From NCBI GenBank assembly GCA_943788985.1, contig CALSSJ010000012.1, positions 171,679 through 235,678 of the forward strand: a stretch of 64,000 nt of DNA, written 5' to 3'. Below, piece after piece: positions 4,233 to 28,516 of the stretch. The notes beneath the pieces were generated by a model. The model was not told the DNA's origin. It did not search any database and was given only the letters and a program-made list of their open reading frames with translations. This stretch comes from an uncultured Lentisphaerales bacterium (GTDB lineage: Bacteria > Verrucomicrobiota > Lentisphaeria > JABSQK01 > UBA12247). Within the stretch, counting starts at the first letter, position 1. Each line of letters begins with the position of its first letter. The position numbers and the translations under genes are program-made.

Positions 4233-4976
4233 ATGCTCGACCAAGAACGCGAAAAACTAATTGCCGATTTACTGAGCCAGAAGGCCTTCGTTTCCTTGCA
4301 GGAAGTCGTCGCTGCGTGCGGTGCCTCGGCAGTAACCGTGCGGCGCGACTTCACCCGGATGGAAGCCCAAGGGCTCTTGGAGCGCATCCATGGCGGAGCC
4401 AAGAGCACGATGGAAAACCTGCCGTTGGAGATTCGCCGGACGGTGATGTTCGAAGAGAAAACACGCATCGCCGAAAAGGCCGTTGCGATGTGCGCTGACG
4501 GCGAGACGGTCTTCATTGACGGCGGCTCGACCACCAGCCAGATGGCAGCACATCTGAAACCCCGTCGCCTCGAAATCGTCACCAATTCGTTGGTTCTTGC
4601 CACAGCCCTGCTCGACAGCCGCAACGAGCTGGTGCTCACCGGAGGCAGCGTGCTGCCCAGGCAGGGCCTGGTGCTCAACCCTTTCGAGGACGACCTGATT
4701 GATCGCTATCGCGCAGCCAAGGCGATCATGGGCGTGGGCGGACTCGATCCGGTCGGCCCGACGAACGACGATCCACGCCTGATCCGCTTCGAGCAGAAGA
4801 TGATCGCGCATGCCGACGAGATCATTCTGCTGGCCGACAGCGCCAAGCTCGGCAAGCGCGAAAAGCTCCTGCTTTGCGAGTACAGCAAGATCAGTGCGAT
4901 CATCACCGACAGCAACCTTGCGCCTGAGCACCGCGCGTGGCTCGACAAACTCCCACTGACACTCATCACGGTTTGA
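4233..4976 (+). CDS. DeoR/GlpR family transcriptional regulator
   Basis: N-terminal HTH (LLSQKAFVSLQEVVAACGASAVTVRRDF) plus a DeoR C-terminal sugar-phosphate sensor domain (FIDGGSTT…NSL). Confidence 0.8.
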   Translation: MLDQEREKLIADLLSQKAFVSLQEVVAACGASAVTVRRDFTRMEAQGLLERIHGGAKSTMENLPLEIRRTVMFEEKTRIAEKAVAMCADGETVFIDGGSTTSQMAAHLKPRRLEIVTNSLVLATALLDSRNELVLTGGSVLPRQGLVLNPFEDDLIDRYRAAKAIMGVGGLDPVGPTNDDPRLIRFEQKMIAHADEIILLADSAKLGKREKLLLCEYSKISAIITDSNLAPEHRAWLDKLPLTLITV

Positions 4977-4992
4977 CCAAGGAAACCAGATT

Positions 4993-6036
4993 ATGAAAGC
5001 AATGAAACTCACCGGCATCGAGGCCATGGAGATGATGGAGGTTGCGACTCCCGAGATCACCAACCCGAACGATGTCCTGATCCAGATGAAAACCGTGGGC
5101 GTCTGTGGCTCGGACGTGCACTATTATGAGACTGGGCAAATTGGTTCACAAGTTGTGGACTACCCGTTTGCGGTCGGCCATGAGGGCGCGGGCGTGGTGG
5201 TGGCGGTGGGGACTGCAGTCACGCGAGTTAAGCCGGGCGACCGGATTGCGATCGAGCCAGCCATGCCCTGCGGTGCCTGCGATCAGTGCCTGACAGACCG
5301 TGCGCACACCTGCCGCGCGCTGCGCTTTCTCGGCTGCCCAAGGCAGGCCGAAGGCTGCCTCTCGGAGTACATCGTCATGCCCGAGGGGAGCTGCTTTACA
5401 GTAAGCGCGACCACTAGCTTCGATGAGGCCGCGATCTCAGAGCCGCTCGCCATCGGCGTCTATGCCGTCAAGCAGTCTATTCCCATGGCCGGCGCCAAGG
5501 TCGGCATTCTTGGTGCCGGATGCATTGGCCTGAGCGTCCTGCTGCCTGCCCAAGCCCAGGGGGCGGACAAGATTTACGTAACTGATAAGATCGACAATCG
5601 CCTCGCACTGGCCGCTGAAGTCGGGGCTGCCTGGGGGGGCAATCCGGATTGCGAAGACGTGGTGGCGAAGGTCGCCGAGTTAGAGCCTGGCGGTCTCGAC
5701 GTGGTCTTCGAATGCTGCGGCGAGCAGGAAGCGCTGGACCAGGCGATCGAGATGCTCAAGCCTGGCGGCAAGCTCATGATCATCGGCATTCCCCCGACTG
5801 CAAAGCGGGTGACCTTTCTGATTGACAAACTGCGCCACAAAGAGATCTGTATCCAGAACGTTCGCCGGCAGAACCATTGTGTGCAGCCTGCACTTGACAT
5901 GATGGAACGCGGCGACTTCGACGTGAACGTCATGGTTACCCATCGCTTCCCCTTTGAGCAGAGCAAAGCGGCCTTCGACCTCGCCGCTTCCTACAAAGAC
6001 GGCGTGGTCAAAACAATGATCGATTTCCCCGCGTAG
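4993..6036 (+). CDS. Zn-dependent alcohol/polyol dehydrogenase (MDR superfamily, sorbitol/threonine dehydrogenase-like)
   Basis: GVCGSDVHYYE, GHEGAGVV, a C-x2-C-x2-C structural-zinc motif (PCGACDQC), and a Rossmann motif GAGCIGL. Confidence 0.8.
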   Translation: MKAMKLTGIEAMEMMEVATPEITNPNDVLIQMKTVGVCGSDVHYYETGQIGSQVVDYPFAVGHEGAGVVVAVGTAVTRVKPGDRIAIEPAMPCGACDQCLTDRAHTCRALRFLGCPRQAEGCLSEYIVMPEGSCFTVSATTSFDEAAISEPLAIGVYAVKQSIPMAGAKVGILGAGCIGLSVLLPAQAQGADKIYVTDKIDNRLALAAEVGAAWGGNPDCEDVVAKVAELEPGGLDVVFECCGEQEALDQAIEMLKPGGKLMIIGIPPTAKRVTFLIDKLRHKEICIQNVRRQNHCVQPALDMMERGDFDVNVMVTHRFPFEQSKAAFDLAASYKDGVVKTMIDFPA

Positions 6037-17835: not shown

Positions 17836-18261
17836 ATGAAGCAAACTCTCTCGATAAACCGCGCGCTCGCCGTGAGTGGCTGTGCCCTGATGCTGGTCGG
17901 ACAACTGCTGGCGTCCATCACGTGTCTGTCCGTGTGCTCATTCCCGGCGACGGCCCGCTCGGCGTCGGATGCCGTGCCTTGCAGCTCCTGCTGCAGTGCC
18001 CCGGCCCCGCAAACATCGGCAACCACTTCGACGCTGACGCCCTGTAAGGATTGCCCGATGCCGTGCTGTGTGAACACGGACCAAGAGCAATTGAATGCGG
18101 CGCTTCAGAACCACCGCGTTGCCAGTCCGGCAGTGGTCACGCTCTCGACGAAAGTACGTTGGGCTGGCCCGCAGCCCAAGGTTCGGACGAGTCCCCAATT
18201 CTTGCCCCCCGCCTCGCCGCCCCCTCCGCTCTACCGAATGCACTGCGCCCTGTTGACCTGA
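17836..18261 (+). CDS. Small Cys-rich secreted/membrane-anchored hypothetical protein (CSSCCSAP, CKDCPMPCC motifs)
   Basis: The 141-aa ORF has GC3 of roughly 75%. The N-terminal hydrophobic segment ALAVSGCALMLVGQLLASITCLSVCSF is followed by 10 further Cys and a Pro-rich tail. It fits exactly between the sulfatase and the HlyD start. Confidence 0.4.
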   Translation: MKQTLSINRALAVSGCALMLVGQLLASITCLSVCSFPATARSASDAVPCSSCCSAPAPQTSATTSTLTPCKDCPMPCCVNTDQEQLNAALQNHRVASPAVVTLSTKVRWAGPQPKVRTSPQFLPPASPPPPLYRMHCALLT

Positions 18262-18329
18262 TAGCCGGATGCCTCGCTCGCATCCCGTCCCCCCGAACGC
18301 TATCCGCTATCAATCAACAGGAGAGCCGC

Positions 18330-19865
18330 ATGTCCTCATCCAATCTTCTGGACCTACAATCTGAGTCGCCCAGCCGGCCCGCTCCGCGGCCGCGCATTCG
18401 TTGGTGGTCCCGAGTCCTCGTCCCAGCTATTCTTTTTCTTAGTGTCGCACTGCTGCTCATTGCCGCGACTTGGCAACACTTTGTACCTGCGCAAGCCGTC
18501 CGCGTCGAGACGGCGATTGCCAAGCAGGTCGGTGACCGCGCCCGGGCCAGTTCTGTGGTGCAGGCCGCGGGCTGGCTAGAGGCGTTTCCCTACCAGACGC
18601 ATATCACCGCCCTGGCCGATGGCGTTGCCAAGGAAATTTTCGTGCTCGAAGGCGACTCTGTAAAAGCCGGTCAAGCCGTCGCCCAGCTGGATCCCGCGGA
18701 CGCTGAGTTTGCTGTGCGTAAATCCCGGGCCGAACTCGCTGCTCGCAAGGCCTCGCTGCAGAAGGCCAGCGTCCGTTTAGAGGCTGCTCGCCAGACGTGG
18801 GAGCATCCCGTCGCTCTGGAACAAGCCAAGGCAAGCAGCGCCGCAAGTGTTCGCGAGCAGCAGTCGATGATTGCCGAGATGGAAGCGCGTATTGCCGAAC
18901 AGATCGCTGTCATGAATCAGGCAAAACGCGATGCGGAACGCGTTAAGGGCATGGTGGCAGACGACGTTGTGAGTGCGCAGAATGGCGAGCAAGCACAGGC
19001 AATATTCGCCGCAGAACGCGCCGGTTTGGATGCCTTGACGCGTAGCCTAGCGGCCGCCAACGACCGGGTCGAGCGCCTTGCTATTGACCACACAGCCGCG
19101 ACCGAAAACCTGGAGTTGCGCATCTTGGATCGCCAGGAAGTCGATGAAGCCAAAGCCGAACTTAGCCAAGCCGAGGCAGCCGTGGTCCTGGCCGAAGCGG
19201 AACTGGCCGATGCTGATCTCCAGCTCCGGCGGATGACGATTCTATCCCCAATCGACGGGGTCGTAGTCACCCGTCATAAATCCCCGGGGGACAAGGTGAT
19301 GCGCCACATGGACCACCCGCGTTCGGCGACCATAGTAAGTCTCTACGATCCCGCGCAGCTGCAGGTTCGCGTCGACGTGCCGCTGGCTGATGCCGGGCAG
19401 ATTGGCGTCGGCCAAGACTGTGAGATCACCACCGACGTGATGCCCAACCGCAGCTTCGCGGGCAAGGTCGTGCGCATTCTCCACGAGGCAGACATCCAGA
19501 AGAACACGCTCCAGGCCAAGGTCGCCATCGCCGAGCCCAGCCCGGAATTGCGCCCTGAAATGCTCTGCCGCATTCGCTTCCTCGCTCAGGCAGCGTCAGA
19601 GAACGAACCCGCGACGATCCACATCCGGACCTTCGTTCCCCAGCGCGCTATCGCCAATGGCCAGGTCTGGCTGGCCCAGATGACGACTGACCGCTTCGCC
19701 ACCGTGAACCCCGTTTCGGCCACGGGAGGCTTGGAGTTGGAGGGCTGGCGCGTCGTCGATGGCGTCCACGCCGGCGCCTTGGTTATCGTCGATCCCCCCT
19801 CCGATCTCGAAGCTGGGCAACGGGTTCGCGTCATTGACTCCTCTGGCATCACGAGGCAGCCATGA
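18330..19865 (+). CDS. HlyD-family membrane fusion protein (MacA-like periplasmic adaptor)
   Basis: N-terminal TM segment, long coiled-coil (AELAARKASLQKASVRLEAAR…) and a beta-barrel/MP domain. A ribosome-binding-site-like AACAGGAGAG run precedes the ATG at 18330. The last codons overlap the downstream ABC ATPase. Confidence 0.8.
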   Translation: MSSSNLLDLQSESPSRPAPRPRIRWWSRVLVPAILFLSVALLLIAATWQHFVPAQAVRVETAIAKQVGDRARASSVVQAAGWLEAFPYQTHITALADGVAKEIFVLEGDSVKAGQAVAQLDPADAEFAVRKSRAELAARKASLQKASVRLEAARQTWEHPVALEQAKASSAASVREQQSMIAEMEARIAEQIAVMNQAKRDAERVKGMVADDVVSAQNGEQAQAIFAAERAGLDALTRSLAAANDRVERLAIDHTAATENLELRILDRQEVDEAKAELSQAEAAVVLAEAELADADLQLRRMTILSPIDGVVVTRHKSPGDKVMRHMDHPRSATIVSLYDPAQLQVRVDVPLADAGQIGVGQDCEITTDVMPNRSFAGKVVRILHEADIQKNTLQAKVAIAEPSPELRPEMLCRIRFLAQAASENEPATIHIRTFVPQRAIANGQVWLAQMTTDRFATVNPVSATGGLELEGWRVVDGVHAGALVIVDPPSDLEAGQRVRVIDSSGITRQP

Positions 19866-20563
19866 GCTTCATACTCTGTCGCGACATTCGTCGTATCTAT
19901 CGCCGCGGTGACGCGGAGATCAAGCCACTAGACGGCCTCAGCCTCGACGTCCAAAAGGGCGAGTTTTTGGCCCTAATGGGGCCGAGCGGGAGCGGCAAGA
20001 CGACGCTGCTCAACCTCATCGCCGGGATCGACCAGCCCACCTCCGGGCAGCTGATCATCGACGGCAATGACATCTCCACGCTCTCTGCTGGCAAGCTGGC
20101 ACGCTGGCGCTCGTCCTACATCGGTTACGTGTTTCAACTCTACAACCTCATTCCCGTGCTGACCGCCTACGAAAATGTGGAAGTGCCGCTGCTGCTTCAG
20201 TCGCTCAGCAAGCGCGAACGCCACGAACGCGTCGCGGCTGCGCTGGACCTGACAAACATCGCCGACCGTCACGATCACTATCCTCGCCAGCTATCCGGCG
20301 GCCAGGAGCAGCGTGTGGCCATCGCTCGGGCGCTGGTCACGGATCCGCAGATCATCGTCGCCGACGAGCCGACCGGCGACCTGGATCGCGAGTCGGCCGC
20401 CGCCATCATGCAGTTGCTGCAGCGACTCAATCGCGAGCTGGGGCGGACGCTGATCATGGTGACGCATGACGAGAAGGCGACCCGCTTCGCCACCCGCACC
20501 CTGCATCTGGACAAGGGGCTGCTGGTGGAGTCAGCCGCCGGAGCCATGGCAGACGAGGACTAA
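19862..20563 (+). CDS. ABC transporter ATP-binding protein (MacB/LolD/FtsE-like)
   Basis: Walker A GPSGSGKTT, Q-loop, signature LSGGQEQRVAIARAL, Walker B IIVADEPTGDLD. Confidence 0.9.
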   Translation: MSFILCRDIRRIYRRGDAEIKPLDGLSLDVQKGEFLALMGPSGSGKTTLLNLIAGIDQPTSGQLIIDGNDISTLSAGKLARWRSSYIGYVFQLYNLIPVLTAYENVEVPLLLQSLSKRERHERVAAALDLTNIADRHDHYPRQLSGGQEQRVAIARALVTDPQIIVADEPTGDLDRESAAAIMQLLQRLNRELGRTLIMVTHDEKATRFATRTLHLDKGLLVESAAGAMADED

Positions 20564-20564
20564 G

Positions 20565-21713
20565 ATGTTAAAGCCCAGATACCTGCCATTTGTCGTCAAA
20601 CACATAACCCGACACCGCTGGCGCAGTGCCCTGACCGTGCTCGGAGTGGGCACCGCGATGTTTCTATTCTGCGGCGTCCGGGCAATGCACGAAGGCGTGC
20701 AAGAGGCGACCGTTTCCAGCGCCGGCGAAACCACCCTCGTGGTTTACCGCGAGAACCGCTTCTGCCCCTTCACCAGTAAGCTCCCGCAGGACTACGGCCG
20801 CCAAATCGCAAAGCTGCCAGGCGTCGATTCCGTGGTCCCGATGAAGATCATGGTCGGCAACTGCCGGGCATCGCTGGACGTCATCACCTTTCGCGGGGTA
20901 CCGCCGGCTGACTTCAACAGTGTTGCCGCTAACTTTCAGGTCGTCGATGGCTCGGTGGCCGAGTGGCGAAAGCGAAGCGACGCCGCCTTGATCGGTCTTC
21001 GCGCTGCGACTCGACGCGGATTGCGCGTGGGCGATCGACTCGAGATCGCGGGGATCACCATCACCATCGCCGGCATCGTCGAATCCGACCGGCCACAGGA
21101 TCAGGACTCGGCCTTTACCCATCTGGATTTTCTGCAGCGGAGTTCCGGCGCCGGGCTTGGCGAGGTCACTCAGTTCAATGTTAGTGTCAGCGACCCGCAG
21201 CAATTGGACGAGGTCGCCCGACGCATCGATGCGTTCTTCGCAACTGCCCAGGATCCGACGGCCACATGGAGTGAAAAAGCGTTCACGGCGCGCGCTGTGA
21301 CCGACATTATTGAGCTGGTGAGTTTTGCTGCCTGGCTCGGCTGGGGTGCACTTGTTGCGGTCTTCGCACTGGCCGCCAACGCCATCATCCTGAGCGTCCA
21401 AGAACGCGTGCGCGATCACGCCGTGCTACAGACCCTCGGTTTCGGAACCGGGCTTATCGCGCGGCTGATTGTCGTCGAGAGCGCGTTGCTGAGCCTGCTG
21501 GGTGGGGCGATCGGAATCGCGGCCGCCGCGGCCGTGTTGCATTGGGGGCGTTTTTCCCTGTCTGTCGAAGGCCAGAGCGTGCAGGCCAACACGAATCCAG
21601 AGACCATTGTCCTTGGCCTTGTCTACTGCCTGCTGCTGGGAATCGGCGCCGGGCTCTTTCCCGCCTGGCAGGCAAGCCGTCGCGACATCGTTACCTGTTT
21701 TCGGGCGGTATAA
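20565..21713 (+). CDS. ABC transporter permease (FtsX/MacB-type: N-terminal TM, periplasmic domain, C-terminal 3 TM)
   Basis: N-terminal TM, a ~200-aa periplasmic MacB_PCD-like region, and a C-terminal FtsX domain (…LGFGTGLIARLIVVESALLSLLGGAIGIAAA…). The ATG follows the ATPase stop by 2 nt. Confidence 0.8.
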   Translation: MLKPRYLPFVVKHITRHRWRSALTVLGVGTAMFLFCGVRAMHEGVQEATVSSAGETTLVVYRENRFCPFTSKLPQDYGRQIAKLPGVDSVVPMKIMVGNCRASLDVITFRGVPPADFNSVAANFQVVDGSVAEWRKRSDAALIGLRAATRRGLRVGDRLEIAGITITIAGIVESDRPQDQDSAFTHLDFLQRSSGAGLGEVTQFNVSVSDPQQLDEVARRIDAFFATAQDPTATWSEKAFTARAVTDIIELVSFAAWLGWGALVAVFALAANAIILSVQERVRDHAVLQTLGFGTGLIARLIVVESALLSLLGGAIGIAAAAAVLHWGRFSLSVEGQSVQANTNPETIVLGLVYCLLLGIGAGLFPAWQASRRDIVTCFRAV

Positions 21714-21714
21714 G

Positions 21715-22875
21715 GTGCGCATTCTCCCCTACGACTATGCCGTTCGCAACCTTGGCCGGGCACCCTTGCGCCTTGTGGCCACGGTCGGCGGCTGCACCAT
21801 GGTGGTGCTGATCATGATGGCTGCCACCGCCTTTGTGCAGGGCATGCGCCGATCGCTGACCCCCAACTTGCAGAGCCGCAATGTGCTCTTGCTCAGCGCC
21901 GGTAGCGAAGAAAGCCTTGAGCGCAGCCAGATTAGCGCGGCCATACCGGGCCACGTGCGGGCCTCAGTCACCGGCATCAAGCAGCGGCTTGGCGAGCCCT
22001 TCATCTCACCTGAGATCCATCTCGCGCTGATTGTTTCTCGACCGCAGCAAAGCGAAGAGCTACGGGCGATCGTTCGTGGTGTCGACACCGGCGCCTTTCT
22101 CGTCCATTCCCGCGTGCAGTTGACCGCTGGCCGCCCGCCGCAGCACGGGCACAACGAACTGCTCGTTGGCGCCCTCGCCGCGGAAAAGCTCAATATCCCG
22201 GAAGCCGACCTTGCCATCGGCAAGTCGCTCATCGTCGAGGGCAACCCTTGGACCATCGTGGGCCGATTTGCCGCGCCAGGGACGGTGATGGATGCGGAGA
22301 TTTGGACAAGCTACACCGATCTTCAGGTCGCCACGCAGCGCAACAGCCTGTCCTGTATCGTTATGACACTGGATGAGGCAGAGCTGGCCGACCTTGCCGC
22401 CTGGACCGCGGTGCGATTGGATTTGGAGCTTGTTGCCATGAGTGAAGGCGAGTATTACGCGTCCCTGCGGCAATTCTACGGACCGGTGCGCGCCATGATC
22501 TGGGTGACAGCTTTGCTGATGGCCCTGGCCGGTATTCTTGGCGGGCTCAACACGCTATTTGCAGCCTTTGCGGCGCGAACACGCGAGCTCGGCATGCTGC
22601 AAGCGCTCGGCTACTCGCGCGGTGCGATTCTGCTGAGCCTGCTGCAGGAGTCTATGCTGGCTGGAGCCGCAGGCGCCTTGATCGGAGCGCTCATTTCCTA
22701 CTTTTTATTGCATGGCAACGCTGTACGTTTTTCTATGGGCGTGTTTGAGTTGCAGGTCGACGCGGTCACAGTCTTTATCGGCATGCTCAGCGGTCTCGCG
22801 CTTGGCTTTATCGGCGCCCTGCCGCCAGCCTTTCGCTGTCTGCGGGAACCCATTCCCAGCGCCTTGCGCACCTGA
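21715..22875 (+). CDS. Second FtsX/MacB-type ABC permease (GTG start)
   Basis: Same architecture (…GMLQALGYSRGAILLSLLQESMLAGAAGALIGALISYF…). A GTG start lies 2 nt after the previous stop, preceded by taaGG. Confidence 0.7.
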   Translation: MRILPYDYAVRNLGRAPLRLVATVGGCTMVVLIMMAATAFVQGMRRSLTPNLQSRNVLLLSAGSEESLERSQISAAIPGHVRASVTGIKQRLGEPFISPEIHLALIVSRPQQSEELRAIVRGVDTGAFLVHSRVQLTAGRPPQHGHNELLVGALAAEKLNIPEADLAIGKSLIVEGNPWTIVGRFAAPGTVMDAEIWTSYTDLQVATQRNSLSCIVMTLDEAELADLAAWTAVRLDLELVAMSEGEYYASLRQFYGPVRAMIWVTALLMALAGILGGLNTLFAAFAARTRELGMLQALGYSRGAILLSLLQESMLAGAAGALIGALISYFLLHGNAVRFSMGVFELQVDAVTVFIGMLSGLALGFIGALPPAFRCLREPIPSALRT

Positions 22876-23500: not shown

Positions 23501-23553
23501 GCCATAGATAGGGCATGGCTTGGCAGCTGCCTTTTTAGTTTTTTTCCTTTTTT
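23501..23553 (+). terminator. Putative intrinsic terminator: two hairpins (gccat…atggc; ggcagctgcc) followed by a T-rich tract
   Basis: gccatagatagggcatggcttggcagctgcctttttagtttttttccttttttg lies about 80 nt after the lipoprotein stop. Confidence 0.4.
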
Positions 23554-23676: not shown

Positions 23677-25488
23677 TTGGGCACGATGACAGATCCTACA
23701 GACGCACCGGCTGACTACCGATTTCAGGTCAATCTGAAGGACCTAATCGGGATCTTATCACACCATCTCTACTCTACCCACGACGTGTTTCTGCGTGAAC
23801 TCACGCAGAACTGCTGCGACGCCATCAGCGCCCGACGGCGCGTCGACGCAGAGTTCGAGCCTCTGATTGAATTCGAACTGCTCGAGGGAGGCGACACGCC
23901 GACGTTGCTGGTGGCGGACAATGGCTGCGGCCTAACCGCAGAGGAGATTCACGAGTTTCTGGCTACGATCGGAACCAGCAGCAAGCGGGAAGAAGCAGAT
24001 TTCATCACGACACGGGCAGACTTTATTGGCCAGTTTGGTATCGGTCTTCTGTCCACCTTCATGGTGTGTGACGAGATCGTGCTGCTGACGCGCTCGCACA
24101 AGAGCGAGCAAGCTTATGAGTGGCGTGGGCACAGTGATGGCACCTATACACTCACGGAAAGCGACGCCGATCTCACGGTCGGCACGCGCGTGTTTCTCCG
24201 TGCGTCTGCGGACTCCGCAGATTTGTTCACTGGCGATCAGATCCTAGAACGTTTACGCCACTATTGCAACTACCTGCCAACCCCCATCTTCCTCACCTGG
24301 GCTGACACACGGAAGCAAGTGAATGAGGTGGCGCCCTGGTCGCGTACATGCCCTGCTGCAGATAGCGAAGCGGCGGCTGTCAAGCTGGCACAGCGTTGCT
24401 TTGGCGAGGGGCAGATTCTCGATGTGTTTGCCATTGAAGGGGACTATGTCAGCGGCCACGCCTTCCTGATGCCCTTTCATATGATCGGCGGTGCCCGGCG
24501 TAACGCGGTATACATCCGCAATATGTTCATTGGCGCGAATCTAAATGACCTGATGCCTGATTGGGCCTGCCTGTTTGCGATCGTGCTTAACAGCGATCAC
24601 CTGACGCCCTCAGCATCCCGTGAGGCGCTCTACGGTGACGAGCACCTCGCCGCTGCCCGCGAGGAGATCGAGCGCGCACTCAACGTCTACCTGCGCCGGC
24701 TCGCCAGCGATCGCCCCGCGGTCTTGACCGAGTTGATTCTGCAATACGAGCCACTGCTAAAGAATCTGGCCGCTCAAAATGATCACTTCCTGCAGTGTAT
24801 CTTTGGCGTTCTTACTTTCGAGACCAGTCGCGGTCGCCTGCCATTGAGCGAGGTGCTGGCCGATCCCGGCGGGGCTTCCTTCGTCACGGACGTGGATGAG
24901 TTTCATAAGCTGGTGCCAATCGCCTCGGCCTCTGGCCACGTCGTGATCAACGCTGGCTACGCTTTCGAGCCCGTCCTGATGAGCAAGCTTCATCTCCTGC
25001 ATGGCCCCAAACTGCGCCCGATGGACAGCGCAGCGCTGCTCGCCTGCCTCAAGGAAGTGAACGATCCAGAAGCCGCCGAGTGGGCGGAAACGCACGACCT
25101 ACTCTCCCGCGTGCTGCGTATCTACGGCGTCCGCCCGCGTCTGGTGCGCTTTCAGCCAGACACCATCCCGATGCTCTATTTCCAGGGCGAGGCGCAACGG
25201 GAGGCACGGCGCATGCAGCACTTTGAGGAACAGGCGGATGACCTTTTCCAAAGCGTCCTGTCCGAATTGTCGCTTCCGCCAGATCCTAACGAACTGCTGG
25301 TGAACGTCGAGAATCCTCTAATTCAGAACCTGCAAGCCTGTGGTGACACGGGCTTTGCCGAATCGGTGGCCAAGCTGCTCTATGTCCAATCCCTACTGCT
25401 GGGGCGATATCCTCTAGGCCATCAGGAGTTGCTGCTTCTAAACGAGAACGTCGGTGCGTTGCTGCAGCGAACCTTGCTGGGAGACTGA
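23677..25488 (+). CDS. HSP90 family protein (HtpG paralogue, GHKL ATPase)
   Basis: Block-by-block similarity to HtpG: LYSTHDVFLRELTQNCCDAI (cf. LYSNKEIFLRELISNASDA), LLVADNGCGLTAEEI, IGQFGIGLLSTFMV. At 603 aa it retains middle and C-terminal domains. There is no MEEVD tail. Confidence 0.8.
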   Translation: MGTMTDPTDAPADYRFQVNLKDLIGILSHHLYSTHDVFLRELTQNCCDAISARRRVDAEFEPLIEFELLEGGDTPTLLVADNGCGLTAEEIHEFLATIGTSSKREEADFITTRADFIGQFGIGLLSTFMVCDEIVLLTRSHKSEQAYEWRGHSDGTYTLTESDADLTVGTRVFLRASADSADLFTGDQILERLRHYCNYLPTPIFLTWADTRKQVNEVAPWSRTCPAADSEAAAVKLAQRCFGEGQILDVFAIEGDYVSGHAFLMPFHMIGGARRNAVYIRNMFIGANLNDLMPDWACLFAIVLNSDHLTPSASREALYGDEHLAAAREEIERALNVYLRRLASDRPAVLTELILQYEPLLKNLAAQNDHFLQCIFGVLTFETSRGRLPLSEVLADPGGASFVTDVDEFHKLVPIASASGHVVINAGYAFEPVLMSKLHLLHGPKLRPMDSAALLACLKEVNDPEAAEWAETHDLLSRVLRIYGVRPRLVRFQPDTIPMLYFQGEAQREARRMQHFEEQADDLFQSVLSELSLPPDPNELLVNVENPLIQNLQACGDTGFAESVAKLLYVQSLLLGRYPLGHQELLLLNENVGALLQRTLLGD

Positions 25489-25492
25489 ACCA

Positions 25493-28348
25493 ATGAGAAG
25501 CTCTGTGGATTTCGAACTGGAGGCCGAGAGCCTGCCCGACGGGATTGAGAAGGGCCGCCTGCTGGAGCGCGCCGCGGAGCTCTCCGAGCTGGATGGCGAC
25601 ACCTCCCGGGCCTTCGCCCTGCGCTACGCTATGCTAAGGGCGCAATATGGCTGCGCCGCAGACGAAAAGGTAATTGGTATCTTTTCTTGGATGGCGCGCA
25701 CGATCGACCGCGAGCCCGAAGTTCGCGCCCAGTGGACAGACTCATTCATGTGGCTCTACAAGTGGGTTTTGAATTCCTGTCAGCGGTTGAGTGCTATCCC
25801 GCGAGGAAAAATAGAGGCACTGCATGGCGACTATGAGCGGCGCGTGAGGGCGCTCGGCTACAGCCTGTATAGCGTCTACCAGCAGCGTATGGACCTTGCC
25901 TGCTACTTCGGCGAGCTGGACCAAGCAGAGGACTACTGGCGCCAGATGCGAACGCACAGCCGCGATGATCACTGCGACTGTGAGGCATGCGTGCCGAGCA
26001 ATGTTTCCACCCTGCTCAGGAAGTTGGGACGTCACGACGAGGCATGGCACCAGTACGACCGCGTGATCTGCGGGGAGCTATCGTGCGACCAAGTCCCGAG
26101 CGTGTCCTGGCCGAGGCTGGCGGTGCTGGCCTTAAACGCTGGAGACGAATCGCACGCTGCACTTTACGCGAATGCTTGGTCTGAAACTCTCACCAGGGTC
26201 GAGATTACTTACACGCTTGAGGATTTGATTCACTATATGTGGCGCCGTGGGCTCTGGGGCGATTTCCGTCACTACCTGCGCGTGCACGCCAATCCTACGT
26301 TCTTTTCGGTCATGAACCAAGTACCGATCTGGCGGGAGTTGGATGCGGCGCTGGTTCGCTTTGCGCCGCACTTCGCCGAGACTGAATTTCTAGGCCCGAT
26401 GCGCATCACGGACTCCTTCACTGTGAGTACCTGGGCAGAGTTGGCTGCGAAGGCACACGCGACTGTCGCCGAGGAAGACACGCGCTTTGACCGACGCAAT
26501 CGTACGCCACACTTTTGCGAGCAGCATCAAGCCAGGCTCGAGCGGGCAGAATCACTGCAGAGCGAGCCAGTCCATTCGGAGTTGACCACGGCTGCCAGCA
26601 GCCGCGACAGCGTGGCGTCAGCGGAGGAAGATGTCCGCTCAGAAAGTTTTGCGGAGTTCGCACAACGGTTTCGTGATGAGATCGAGTCATGCTACGGGTG
26701 GGAAGACGAGCGCCAGGCCCTGGCTGGTCTTGATGCTTTGGCATTGCTCGAGATTGTCCGGGACGGAGAAGCGGATGCCCGCAGCTACGCGGCGCTGCGG
26801 GAGCTTGCCGAGCACTACGCCGACTCCGTTGAGTGCGTCGCCGCGACCGCCCATCAGATCTACAATGACTGGCGTCCGTTCATGGCGCGCGCGGTTCTGC
26901 ATTATCGGGAGGACGTAAAGGGGCTGGATATGCTGCTGCCGGAAGTCCTGCGCTGGCCTTCGGATCTCACAGACTACCTGTTGCGACGCCTAGTGGAGCT
27001 AACTGCGGGAGCGGCCCGGAGCCGCTACGTATTGCGCACAGCGGAGATTGCCGCCCAACGTTACGAGGATGAGCAGGCCCTGGCATTGGTCGAGCAAGTT
27101 GAGAAGGCCCCGCCCACTGCGCTAGAAGACCAGTTCGCCCTCGGGCAACTGCTCAATCATCTGGGCGCACCTGAGCGCGCGCTTGACCTGTGGCCCAGCA
27201 TTCTTGAGCAAACCAGCGGGGAGATGTACCGCGAGGCGCTATTGGGCTCTGCCTATACCTATCACCAGTTGCAGGACTACGCCGCTGCGGAGGACACCTA
27301 CCGGACATGCCTTGGCATGTTTGAAGAGCCCCCGGTGAATCTGCTGCTGGCGCTGACTGCTAGCATTCGGCAACAGGACCGCCCAGGCGACGCTTTGCCC
27401 TTCGCCAAGCGAGCGCTCGAGGCGTCCGATTGGGAAACAGGGGCGTTCCTCGAAATTGGTCATTGCCAGTTCGATCTTGCGGAGTTCGCAGAAGCTGCCA
27501 GAAACTATGCGGAGGTATACCAATTCGACGACTCCTTGGAGATTGCCGAACGCTATGCATTGGCATTGCGCTATGCGGAAGACTACGCTGAGGCGGCGAC
27601 CGTCTTTCGTACCTGTCTCACGATGGCAGAGGAGGAGGAAGAACCGATGGAGGCGTTTCAGTTCGGCCTGGCATTCTGCATGATCGCTGCCAGACCATCG
27701 CCCACTGGTCGCAGGATGATGCGCGAGCTTATCTTGGGGGAGGGAGAGTTTGCTGCCGATGCGTTCTCAGCGCTGAAAGAGGATGTCTGTGAGCGCGATG
27801 GTGTGGCCAGTTGGTCCCGTGTGGTCGCTCTTTTGCTGAAACGGATGCCGAACAGCACCAAGGTCATCACCGAGCGTGCATGGTGTCTGCACACAGCCGG
27901 CAAAATCCGCGATGCCCATACGCTCCTCGAGGCCCATCGCGATGATGACCAGTGCTTGGCTCAGCTGGCGATGCTGCAGACCGATCGGGACGCCGCGTTG
28001 GACTTGCTTCCGCTAGACCGCGTGGCCGGATCCCCGTGGTTGCTGTTCGTGCGCTGGGATCAGCTCGCTGCGCTCGAGCGCTGGGCTGAAGCCGAGCAGA
28101 CGCTTCACGAAGTCGCAGAATTGCTTGGCGAGGTGCCATCTGTCGCCATCCGTCGGGCGGACCAACACGTAGCCCAGGAGGAGTACGCCAAAGCCGATGC
28201 AATTCTAGACGAGCAGTTCGAGAGGCTACAAGACCTGCGCATCCTCGAGCGACGCCTTGTTACGCTCGAGGCCCTCGGCGATACCGAGCAACTTGCCGCG
28301 GTCCGCAACATCGTGGATGCGGCGAATCTGGAAGAACCGGCGGAATAG
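25493..28348 (+). CDS. Large (951-aa) all-alpha TPR-like repeat protein, translationally coupled to the HSP90 paralogue
   Basis: The ATG is 5 nt after the htpG-like stop. There are repeated amphipathic motifs 'YA(E/A)AA..YRTCL.M.EE', acidic stretches, and no enzymatic motif was recognised. Confidence 0.6.
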   Translation: MRSSVDFELEAESLPDGIEKGRLLERAAELSELDGDTSRAFALRYAMLRAQYGCAADEKVIGIFSWMARTIDREPEVRAQWTDSFMWLYKWVLNSCQRLSAIPRGKIEALHGDYERRVRALGYSLYSVYQQRMDLACYFGELDQAEDYWRQMRTHSRDDHCDCEACVPSNVSTLLRKLGRHDEAWHQYDRVICGELSCDQVPSVSWPRLAVLALNAGDESHAALYANAWSETLTRVEITYTLEDLIHYMWRRGLWGDFRHYLRVHANPTFFSVMNQVPIWRELDAALVRFAPHFAETEFLGPMRITDSFTVSTWAELAAKAHATVAEEDTRFDRRNRTPHFCEQHQARLERAESLQSEPVHSELTTAASSRDSVASAEEDVRSESFAEFAQRFRDEIESCYGWEDERQALAGLDALALLEIVRDGEADARSYAALRELAEHYADSVECVAATAHQIYNDWRPFMARAVLHYREDVKGLDMLLPEVLRWPSDLTDYLLRRLVELTAGAARSRYVLRTAEIAAQRYEDEQALALVEQVEKAPPTALEDQFALGQLLNHLGAPERALDLWPSILEQTSGEMYREALLGSAYTYHQLQDYAAAEDTYRTCLGMFEEPPVNLLLALTASIRQQDRPGDALPFAKRALEASDWETGAFLEIGHCQFDLAEFAEAARNYAEVYQFDDSLEIAERYALALRYAEDYAEAATVFRTCLTMAEEEEEPMEAFQFGLAFCMIAARPSPTGRRMMRELILGEGEFAADAFSALKEDVCERDGVASWSRVVALLLKRMPNSTKVITERAWCLHTAGKIRDAHTLLEAHRDDDQCLAQLAMLQTDRDAALDLLPLDRVAGSPWLLFVRWDQLAALERWAEAEQTLHEVAELLGEVPSVAIRRADQHVAQEEYAKADAILDEQFERLQDLRILERRLVTLEALGDTEQLAAVRNIVDAANLEEPAE

Positions 28349-28423: not shown

Positions 28424-28516
28424 AACCACGGAGGCACTAAGGCACGGAGAGGAAGGATTCTGGTCTGTTATTTAATGCCTGCAACTCTACCTCCGTGTCT
28501 CCGGACCTCCGTGGTT
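28424..28516. promoter_or_regulatory. Long imperfect inverted repeat (aaccacggagg…cctccgtggtt; nested cacggag/ctccgtg) in the 383-nt intergenic region
   Basis: The 11-nt perfect arms at 28424-28434 and 28506-28516 and the inner 9-nt arms at 28441-28449 and 28491-28499 were read directly. The loop is AT-rich. Confidence 0.35.

What the first reader, a model, noticed from the sequence alone, without database searches (positions are those of the whole stretch)
23677..28348. Dedicated HSP90 paralogue translationally coupled to a 951-aa TPR-like partner
Bacterial HtpG normally works alone; TPR co-chaperones of Hsp90 are a eukaryotic feature. Here a divergent but full-length HSP90-family GHKL ATPase is followed 5 nt later by a very large all-alpha protein with TPR-like repeats of the form YA.AA..YRTCL. 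The HSP90 protein has unusual Cys substitutions in the ATP lid (LTQNCCDA). The two genes form an isolated operon with a terminator upstream and an inverted-repeat element downstream. This could be a two-component chaperone or remodeller, or a conflict/defence-type ATPase with a sensor module. I know of no described family with this pairing.
Basis: partly seen in the sequence, partly recalled or inferred. Interest (0 to 1): 0.7.

Follow-up and report, generated by a model that had tools for sequence, protein, structure and literature searches.

The report
Divergent HSP90 with conserved TPR-like partner
A divergent bacterial HSP90 ATPase gene is followed 4 bases later by a large helical-repeat protein gene. 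This two-gene module recurs in 72 of 75 informative related loci across about ten phyla (including Listeria, Streptomyces and Myxococcus), I found no description of it, and bacterial Hsp90 is generally described as having no dedicated co-chaperones.

Summary
Window 23686-25488 (+) encodes a 600-aa full-length HSP90-family ATPase. It passes NCBIfam NF010683 'HSP90 family protein' (521 bits, cutoff 455) but not the HtpG model. Four bases later, 25493-28348 encodes a 951-aa all-helical protein.

The new result is that the pair is a conserved module. Of 80 genome loci encoding this HSP90 clade, 75 keep at least 1 kb downstream. In 72 of those 75, a homologue of the first ~360 residues of the 951-aa protein lies next to the HSP90 gene, nearly always immediately downstream and often overlapping it.

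That N-domain has no Pfam or NCBIfam model. It folds confidently (pLDDT 93) into a TPR-like superhelix closest to MalT domain III and Rap/NprR-type receptors. It carries a nearly invariant D-C-x-x-C...C-x-x-x-P cysteine triad.

The C-terminal ~590 residues are a lineage-specific TPR array. I could not show them to be homologous to the extensions in Actinomycetota or Clostridia.

No third gene is conserved, there is no defence-system match, and the context is chromosomal.

- The 'CC' lies in Bergerat motif I, not the lid, and occurs in only 3 of 120 relatives.
- No upstream terminator was found.
- The organism is Lentisphaeria-like.
- 'Paralogue' is unproven; in Listeria this is the only HSP90.

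Most likely this is a dedicated HSP90 adaptor/co-chaperone system. Its function has not been tested.

The parts
23686..25488 (+). HSP90-family ATPase gene (600 aa plus stop), a member of the NCBIfam NF010683/PRK14083 'HSP90 family protein' clade. E38, N42, D78, G115/G118/G120 and the middle-domain R312 are all present.
25480..25492 (+). Junction between the two genes. It holds a GGAG Shine-Dalgarno-like motif (25480-25483) inside the last codons of the HSP90 gene, the TGA stop (25486-25488) and a 4-nt spacer before the partner ATG. This is a translational-coupling geometry.
   Evidence: The equivalent junctions in other genomes span -32 to +100 nt, and many overlap by 1 or 4 nt.
25493..26575 (+). 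Partner N-domain (residues 1-361). This is the conserved HSP90-associated module: a TPR-like superhelix that ends in the RFDxRNG-type motif (TRFDRRNR here).
25979..26086 (+). Codons of the nearly invariant cysteine triad C163, C166 and C198, in the context D-C-x-x-C ... G-x-x-x-C-x-x-x-P. It is a putative metal or redox site.
26576..28348 (+). Partner C-terminal extension (residues 362-951). It is a lineage-specific TPR-like solenoid and includes the Pfam TPR_8 hit (27236-27319) and the two YAxAxx[YF]RTCL motifs (27278-27313 and 27584-27619).
28424..28516 (.). Inverted repeat (26-nt arms, 41-nt loop) in the 384-nt gap after the partner gene. It could be a transcript-end hairpin, but no T-run follows it. 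It is not known to belong to the module.

Best explanation
This is a self-contained two-gene chaperone module. The first gene encodes an ATP-driven HSP90-type clamp from a divergent, widespread bacterial clade. The second encodes its dedicated partner.

The partner's N-terminal ~360-aa TPR-like superhelix is the part that works with the HSP90. I propose that it docks on the HSP90 and acts as an adaptor or co-chaperone that selects clients and/or gates the ATPase cycle. Its cysteine triad probably holds a zinc ion or acts as a redox or metal switch. In this Lentisphaeria-like lineage the partner carries an extra ~590-aa TPR solenoid that adds binding surface for clients or other factors.

Shown here:
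- The genes are coupled, and the pairing is conserved across phyla.
- The HSP90 catalytic residues are intact.
- The partner's fold and its conserved cysteines.
- No conserved third gene and no effector domain.

Inferred, not shown:
- Physical binding between the two proteins.
- The adaptor role.
- Metal binding.
- The identity of any clients.
For: (1) Linkage. Of 80 species-level genome loci found with an HSP90-clade profile, 75 keep at least 1 kb downstream, and 72 of those encode a partner N-domain homologue. It is nearly always the next gene on the same strand, with junctions of -32 to +100 nt. The same arrangement appears in loci found from the partner side, in M. xanthus and Fimbriiglobus ruber and in L. 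monocytogenes, where the genes correspond to lmo0942-lmo0941-lmo0940.

(2) Only the N-domain is shared by the short (~350-390 aa), medium (~700-790 aa) and long (~900-1030 aa) partner forms. The C-terminal extensions of the three classes show no detectable homology to each other.

(3) One HSP90 gene can be followed by 2-5 tandem partner paralogues: F. ruber has 5, several Clostridia have 2-3, and Listeria has 2. This is the pattern expected of interchangeable specificity subunits sharing one motor.

(4) The HSP90 keeps E38, N42, D78, the G-x-x-G-x-G motif and the middle-domain SRE arginine R312, all invariant in the family alignment. It aligns end to end with HtpG and HSP90 models.

(6) The Cys triad is kept in 78-80 of 91 partners from the loci and in 143 of the 145 best representatives. 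The copies that lack it are mostly extra tandem copies.

(7) Context. The module is chromosomal, its flanks vary between phyla, and no third gene is conserved. In a 2.9-Mb Listeria record it is the only HSP90 homologue found. This fits a housekeeping or stress proteostasis role.
Against: There is no experimental or structural evidence that the two proteins bind each other. No complex could be modelled with the tools available, and no HSP90-partner fusion was seen among the 145 best representatives.

The HSP90 has no MEEVD-like C-terminal tail, so the only well-understood TPR-HSP90 docking mode does not apply.

Gene order alone cannot separate 'adaptor' from 'obligate client' or 'regulated sensor'.

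The 4th ligand of a putative zinc site was not identified: H265 is conserved in only 43 of 91 partners. I could not read model coordinates to check that the three Cys lie close together.

Three loci with room downstream lack a detectable partner (L010, L025, L042).
Confidence: 0.5

Rival explanations
1. The partner is the dedicated client or structural cargo of the HSP90, not its helper. The HSP90 clade would be specialised to fold, assemble or hold the large helical-repeat protein, and that protein would carry the real, unknown function, such as a scaffold or a metal-binding sensor.
For: The coupling is tight and implies roughly stoichiometric synthesis. The partner is the larger and more variable protein, with lineage-specific extensions. 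Nothing else is conserved nearby.
Against: In Listeria this HSP90 is the only HSP90 homologue found in a 2.9-Mb record, which is hard to square with a single-client machine. The N-domain is predicted to be a compact, well-packed TPR superhelix (pLDDT 93), and TPR arrays are not generally known to be chaperone-dependent (general knowledge). Multiple tandem partner copies per HSP90 fit adaptors at least as well.
Confidence: 0.17
2. The pair is a signal-gated ATPase switch or conflict/defence-type system. The MalT-domain-III-like or Rap-like superhelix would sense a ligand, peptide, metal or foreign protein and switch the GHKL ATPase on or off. This would be a split analogue of STAND NTPases.
Against: Neither protein has an effector domain such as a nuclease, protease, TIR or pore. 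PADLOC gives no hit for the partner and only a generic GHKL hit for the HSP90. The context is chromosomal and not a defence island, and no defence gene recurs in the flanks. Phage and plasmid collections give only chromosome-like records (Mb-scale or hundreds of kb) or short unannotated fragments. The protein has the full three-domain HSP90 architecture, not a bare GHKL head.
Confidence: 0.13
3. The module is a redox- or metal-stress chaperone in which the cysteine triad is the sensor. Oxidation or zinc release would change the partner's conformation, as in Hsp33, and activate or release the HSP90.
For: The D-C-x-x-C...C-x-x-x-P motif is nearly invariant. In Listeria the module sits next to fri (ferritin/Dps) and a HesB/YadR/YfhF-family gene. 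In two actinobacterial loci a rhodanese gene lies immediately upstream of the HSP90 gene.
Against: These neighbours are not conserved across phyla. Extra partner copies without the cysteines persist. No redox-enzyme domain is present. Three Cys may simply form a structural zinc site.
Confidence: 0.12
4. The two genes are merely adjacent, with no functional link.
For: No direct evidence favours this. The pair has no demonstrated interaction.
Against: Adjacency is kept in 72 of 75 informative loci from about ten phyla, usually with overlapping or near-overlapping reading frames, while every other neighbour changes.
Confidence: 0.02

Closest known systems
NCBIfam NF010683 (PRK14083) 'HSP90 family protein'. 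It probably corresponds to the HtpG 'Group C' lineage of Chen, Zhong & Monteiro 2006 (PMC1525184).
   Same: Gene A scores 521.5 bits against a cutoff of 455 and aligns end to end. Relatives in Myxococcus, Stigmatella, Fimbriiglobus, Streptomyces and Listeria carry this same annotation. Chen et al. already noted that some bacteria, such as S. coelicolor, have two HtpG copies from different groups.
   Different: The family is only a named sequence cluster. I found no functional study, and none of the sources I read mentions a conserved partner gene. The equation with 'Group C' is my inference from taxa and lengths. I did not test it on the paper's sequences.
Canonical bacterial HtpG (E. coli type, NCBIfam NF003555)
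   Same: It has the same three-domain HSP90 architecture and the same catalytic residues.
   Different: Gene A scores 181 bits, below the 371 cutoff. It is about 25-31% identical to HtpG/TRAP1-type proteins. From general knowledge of the field, HtpG works without dedicated co-chaperones, whereas this clade almost always has an adjacent partner gene.
Eukaryotic TPR co-chaperones of Hsp90 (Hop/Sti1, PP5, FKBP51/52, CHIP, Tom70)
   Different: There is no sequence relationship beyond the generic TPR fold. The HSP90 here ends in ...LLQRTLLGD, with no MEEVD anchor. The partner has a unique ~360-aa domain with a Cys triad. The association is encoded in an operon.
MalT domain III (SUPR sensor domain of a STAND ATPase) and RRNPP receptors (Rap, NprR, PlcR, AimR)
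   Different: Sequence identity is only 3-13%. There is no NOD/STAND ATPase, HTH or phosphatase domain. Here the ATPase is a separate GHKL/HSP90 protein.
Tiamat (TmtA) and other GHKL-containing defence proteins
   Same: There is weak similarity over the GHKL ATP-binding head (PADLOC TmtA, 1e-11, residues 16-130).
   Different: The similarity covers only ~115 residues of proteins that are 1300-1800 aa long. The partner has no PADLOC match, and the context is not a defence island.

Membership tests
NCBIfam NF010683 / PRK14083 'HSP90 family protein' | Whole-protein score above the curated cutoff, with an end-to-end alignment | tested here: met
   521.5 bits against a cutoff of 455. Residues 10-596 align to profile positions 5-595 of 604.
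Canonical HtpG (NCBIfam NF003555 / PRK05218) | Whole-protein score above the curated cutoff | tested here: not met
   181.1 bits against a cutoff of 371.
HSP90 superfamily ATPase | Bergerat-fold motifs: the catalytic Glu, the Mg-binding Asn, the adenine-binding Asp and the G-x-x-G-x-G motif | tested here: met
   E38, N42, D78 and G115/G118/G120 are present and invariant or nearly invariant in the family alignment. They align to TRAP1 and Hsp82.
HSP90 superfamily ATPase | Middle-domain catalytic arginine (the SRE motif; R380 in yeast Hsp82) | tested here: met
   'SASRE' with R312 is invariant in alignment A4 and aligns to TRAP1 'NLSRE'.
HSP90 superfamily ATPase | ATP hydrolysis, dimeric clamp cycle and client remodelling | not testable with these tools
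   This needs biochemistry.
Eukaryote-type TPR co-chaperone of Hsp90 | TPR fold in the partner | tested here: met
Eukaryote-type TPR co-chaperone of Hsp90 | C-terminal MEEVD-type acidic anchor on the HSP90 | tested here: not met
   The C-terminus is ...NVGALLQRTLLGD, and the family consensus has no acidic tail.
Eukaryote-type TPR co-chaperone of Hsp90 | Direct binding of the partner to the HSP90 | not testable with these tools
   No complex prediction was available. Gene coupling is only indirect evidence.
Unnamed HSP90-associated partner family (defined here) | An N-terminal ~360-aa domain homologous to the partners found next to HSP90-clade genes in other phyla | tested here: met
   hmmsearch E = 1e-134 against the profile, which includes this sequence. 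Independent BLASTP against M. xanthus, F. ruber and Listeria partners gives 8e-12, 2e-16 and 6e-16.
Unnamed HSP90-associated partner family (defined here) | The D-C-x-x-C ... C-x-x-x-P cysteine triad and the terminal RFDxRNG-type motif | tested here: met
   D162, C163, C166, C198, P202, D333, R335 and N336 are present. G337 is R here.
Unnamed HSP90-associated partner family (defined here) | Encoded immediately downstream of a PRK14083-type HSP90 gene on the same strand | tested here: met
   The spacer is 4 nt here. The arrangement holds in 72 of 75 informative loci.
Known anti-phage defence systems (PADLOC-DB v2) | Both components match the models of a described or candidate system | tested here: not met
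   The partner has no hits. The HSP90 matches only the GHKL head of TmtA and type II REase models.
STAND NTPase (MalT-like) | A NOD (NB-ARC/NACHT/MalT-type P-loop) ATPase joined to the sensor superhelix | tested here: not met
   No P-loop NOD domain was found in either protein. Only the sensor-like fold matches.

The most novel reading that the evidence does not exclude
The ~360-aa Cys-triad superhelix is the founding domain of a large, ancient family of dedicated prokaryotic HSP90 co-chaperones or adaptors. The family has about 2,000 clusters at 50% identity and is present in Bacillota, Actinomycetota, Myxococcota, PVC bacteria, Deinococcota, Chloroflexota, Acidobacteriota and others. If so, HSP90/TPR-type partnerships are not a eukaryotic invention. 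A whole branch of bacterial HSP90 biology would then have been missed, including the sole HSP90 of Listeria monocytogenes.
Probability: 0.45. Interest if true: 0.85.

Novelty: new variant of a known kind. Interest (0 to 1): 0.7.

Why it matters
Reviews of bacterial Hsp90 generally state that HtpG has no co-chaperones and that TPR co-chaperones arose with eukaryotes (my knowledge of the field; compare PMC7688965, 'bacteria lack an ortholog' of Hop).

This work shows that a separate, widespread HSP90 clade is almost always encoded with a TPR-like partner. The clade gave at least 585 hits in species-representative genomes and more than 1,350 protein clusters.

The module occurs in genetically tractable organisms such as L. 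monocytogenes (genes corresponding to lmo0942-0940), M. xanthus, Streptomyces and Paenibacillus. The question of what this HSP90 does, and whether it uses an adaptor, is therefore directly testable.

The work also supplies a clean sequence definition for a large protein family that is currently unannotated ('hypothetical protein').

Tried and rejected
- **Genome scan with the partner alone.** A genome-contig scan with the single 951-aa protein found nothing. I repeated it with an HSP90-clade alignment.
- **Curated families for the partner.** Pfam, NCBIfam and PADLOC gave only weak generic TPR hits. A PDB sequence search with the partner profile gave only designed or consensus TPRs.
- **Homology between C-terminal extensions.** HMMs of the actinobacterial and clostridial extensions do not detect the window's extension. 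Whole-sequence E-values were 0.095 or higher in a 2-sequence search, and only one biased 12.6-bit segment appeared. The apparent full-length alignment in A3 is therefore not evidence of homology.
- **A conserved third gene.** All-against-all BLAST clustering of flank ORFs gave only shadow ORFs, generic ABC ATPases and Ser/Thr kinases.
- **HSP90-partner fusions.** There were none among the 145 best representatives.
- **H265 as the 4th metal ligand.** It is conserved in only 43 of 91 partners.
- **Structured RNA or a known repeat around the operon.** Rfam found nothing credible. The inverted repeat is single-copy in the window, and its fold is only mildly better than shuffles (z = -1.9).
- **Mobility.** Phage hits are 1.5-9-kb unannotated fragments. 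Plasmid hits to this clade are chromosome-sized or megaplasmid records.
- **AFDB fold search.** The library was not available.
- **A sigma-54-like TGGCAC...TGCT upstream of gene A.** I considered this by eye and rejected it because the GG-GC spacing is 2 nt too short. No tool test was run.
- **Literature.** Nine searches found no description of the pair. Subscription journals are not covered.
Full report
**1. What is in the window**

The finding's coordinates hold two co-oriented genes. Gene A is listed as ORF 23677-25488. Its likely start is the ATG at 23686, which gives 600 aa. That is the length of a >=90%-identical GenBank protein, HAR66465.1, 'HSP90 family protein [Lentisphaeria bacterium]'.

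Gene B starts at the ATG at 25493 and ends at 28348, giving 951 aa. The spacer is 4 nt (ACCA). A GGAG lies 9 nt upstream of the ATG, inside the last codons of gene A. This is a classic coupling geometry.

The neighbours are unrelated:
- upstream, two sulfatases and a HlyD/ABC/FtsX exporter;
- a divergent 272-aa ORF with no Pfam hit;
- downstream, after a 384-nt gap, a BD-FAE esterase.

The rest of the window carries polysaccharide-degradation and housekeeping genes. No second HSP90 homologue lies in the 64 kb.

**2. Gene A**

Gene A passes the NCBIfam equivalog model NF010683 (PRK14083, 'HSP90 family protein') with 521.5 bits against a cutoff of 455, aligned end to end. It fails the HtpG model (181 against 371). 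In Pfam, HATPase_c_3 passes and HSP90 is just below threshold.

Against PDB sequences the N-domain aligns to TRAP1, Hsp82 and HSP90 at 1e-24 to 1e-26. The middle-domain 'SRE' loop also aligns.

E38, N42, D78, G115/G118/G120 and R312 are present. They are invariant or nearly invariant in a 15-sequence family alignment. By sequence, this is an ATPase-competent, three-domain HSP90.

The 'LTQNCCDA' string is the E-x-x-x-N-x-x-D helix (Bergerat motif I), not the lid. The two Cys occupy variable positions: 3 of 120 relatives have CC, and the consensus is ELLQNA[TV]DA. The C-terminus (...LLQRTLLGD) has no MEEVD-like tail.

**3. Gene B**

Pfam gives only a threshold-level TPR_8 hit (residues 582-609) and weaker TPR hits. 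NCBIfam and PADLOC give nothing meaningful.

A full-length AF2 model (13-sequence alignment) is all-helical with mean pLDDT 81.8. Foldseek's best PDB matches are large TPR scaffolds: Ctr9, IFT-A TTC21B, Ski3, TTC7B and the OGT TPR domain.

Its similarity is above the shuffle range.

**4. The pair is conserved, and the conserved unit is the N-domain**

Homologues of gene B are few by word-seeded search, but all are 865-965 aa long. In the three contigs I read, a 575-595-aa HATPase_c_3/HSP90 gene sits immediately upstream.

From the other side, gene A has more than 1,350 relatives at E < 1e-20. In M. xanthus the next gene, overlapping the HSP90 stop, encodes a 374-aa protein with no Pfam hit. 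In Fimbriiglobus ruber five tandem genes of 367-384 aa follow. These short proteins are homologous to residues 1 to ~350 of gene B, with BLASTP E-values of 8e-12 and 2e-16. They are 31% identical to each other. The alignment runs from the N-terminus to a shared RFDxRNG motif.

A scan of one genome per species with an HSP90-clade alignment found at least 585 relatives, and 80 loci were kept. They come from Planctomycetota, Myxococcota, Paenibacillus and other Bacilli, Clostridia, Actinomycetota, Acidobacteriota, Deinococcota, Chloroflexota, Bacteroidota and a betaproteobacterium.

An HMM of the N-domain, run on all ORFs of these loci, finds a partner in 70 of the 80. A broadened HMM adds L050 and L082, making 72. 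Five of the remaining loci are cut by a contig end. That leaves 3 of 75 informative loci with no detectable partner.

The partner is almost always the next gene on the same strand, with junctions of -32 to +100 nt and many 1- or 4-nt overlaps.

Partners fall into three length classes:
- ~350-390 aa in most phyla;
- ~700-790 aa in Clostridia, in most of these loci following one or two shorter copies;
- ~900-1030 aa in Actinomycetota and in the window's clade.

The C-terminal extensions of the three classes are not detectably homologous to each other.

All-against-all clustering of flank ORFs found no third conserved gene.

A profile search of 1.84 billion representative proteins gave 1,988 hits at E <= 1e-30. 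The profile also covered the TPR extension, so weaker hits may be generic TPR proteins. In the best 145 the N-domain is always N-terminal and is never fused to an HSP90.

**5. The N-domain**

The family carries a nearly invariant D162-C163-x-x-C166 ... G194-x-x-x-C198-x-x-x-P202 signature. It is present in 78-80 of 91 partners from the loci and in 143 of the 145 best representatives. Copies that lack the cysteines are mostly extra tandem copies in loci where another copy keeps them.

I interpret the triad as a metal (probably zinc) or redox site. This is inference. I could not inspect model coordinates, and no conserved fourth ligand was found.

**6. Context, mobility and a model organism**

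tblastn against plasmid and phage collections found the clade only on chromosome-like records (several Mb-scale, others hundreds of kb) or on short unannotated fragments.

One record shows the L. monocytogenes locus: fri, then an 'HSP90 family protein' gene, then two hypothetical-protein genes of 324 and 320 aa, then SMI1/KNR4 and a low-molecular-weight tyrosine phosphatase. By gene order these correspond to lmo0942, lmo0941 and lmo0940. The record itself uses EL207_RS tags. PMC3534079 places lmo0942 next to fri.

The first hypothetical protein is a partner homologue with the Cys motif (6e-16). The second was the tblastn hit itself (H1).

In a 2.9-Mb Listeria record this is the only HSP90-like place at E <= 1e-5. 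The same search detects canonical htpG genes elsewhere at 1e-17 to 1e-20. So in Listeria this type is probably the sole HSP90 rather than a paralogue.

The literature I could search says only this:
- lmo0941 'encodes a hypothetical protein' of unknown function and shows signals of selection (PMC6901971).
- lmo0942 is listed among heat-shock genes (PMC10393277).

Chen et al. 2006 recognised divergent HtpG groups and two-copy genomes such as S. coelicolor, but do not mention a partner. Nine literature searches found no description of the pairing. Subscription journals are not covered, so prior description cannot be excluded.

**7. Interpretation**

The best-supported reading (about 0.5) is a dedicated two-component chaperone. 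An ATP-driven HSP90 clamp works with an operon-encoded TPR-like adaptor or co-chaperone. The adaptor's conserved N-domain is the HSP90-facing, possibly metal-dependent module. Its variable C-terminal arrays and tandem paralogues diversify what is bound.

The rivals are:
- partner as obligate client (about 0.17);
- a ligand-gated or conflict-type switch (about 0.13). This is favoured by the MalT/Rap-like fold and by partner diversification. It is disfavoured by the lack of any effector domain, defence-model hit, defence-island context or mobility;
- a redox or metal-stress variant (about 0.12);
- mere adjacency, which the conservation data effectively exclude.

**8. Verdict**

Gene A belongs to a named but unstudied HSP90 clade. 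Gene B belongs to a large protein family with no curated model. The pairing appears to be undescribed. I rate it a new variant of a known kind, namely an HSP90 system with a prokaryotic dedicated partner, and I score interest at 0.7.

Noticed in passing
L006:8917-15355 (Fimbriiglobus ruber, NIDE01000001.1): Five tandem partner paralogues (367-384 aa) follow one HSP90-clade gene. Copies 1-3 have lost the Cys triad. A stand-alone 178-aa Clp_N-domain protein follows directly, with ClpG/ClpK/ClpB N-domain hits.
   Followed up: partly
L089:1480-7252 (L. monocytogenes NZ_LR134399.1): The Listeria module, corresponding to lmo0942-0940, lies between fri (Dps-like ferritin, divergent) and genes for an SMI1/KNR4 protein and a low-molecular-weight tyrosine phosphatase. 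A HesB/YadR/YfhF-family gene is also nearby. This context may hint at iron or redox stress.
   Followed up: no
PLSDB records NZ_CP030101.1 (2.9 Mb, L. monocytogenes) and NZ_CP054613.1 (2.7 Mb, Paenibacillus): These chromosome-sized replicons are filed as plasmids in the plasmid collection. Hits there should not be read as evidence of mobility.
   Followed up: no
Plasmid hits H23-H26: P. aeruginosa NZ_CP131792.1, Pseudanabaena NZ_AP017561.1, Xanthomonas vasicola NZ_CP034650.1 and NZ_CP034652.1: A different HSP90-like 'ATP-binding protein' (26-28% identical to gene A over 70-93% of its length) sits on plasmids. Two of these are small Xanthomonas plasmids (14 and 29 kb). It may be a separate, mobile HSP90-like family.
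   Followed up: no
window:22701-23516 (-): A 272-aa ORF with no Pfam hit is divergent from the HSP90 gene. An alternative 169-aa ORF overlaps it on the + strand. Which of the two, if either, is a real gene was not resolved. The T-rich palindrome GGCAGCTGCC-TTTTT at about 23521-23545 lies in the shared intergenic region.
   Followed up: no
window:28424-28516: An inverted repeat with 26-nt arms built from CACGGAG-like subrepeats lies 75 nt after the partner stop codon. It is single-copy in the window, has no Rfam match and is followed by no T-run.
   Followed up: partly
window:20466-21713 and 21502-22875 (+): Two consecutive MacB_PCD/FtsX permease ORFs overlap by about 210 nt as listed. The upstream starts are probably over-called. 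Together with the HlyD gene (18051-19865) and the ABC ATPase gene (19862-20563) they form a MacAB-like exporter operon.
   Followed up: no
L076 (Ruminococcus sp. UBA4275), 4858-5952: This is the only locus where the partner homologue lies upstream of the HSP90 gene. That copy also lacks the Cys triad (RYSN at the four positions checked).
   Followed up: no
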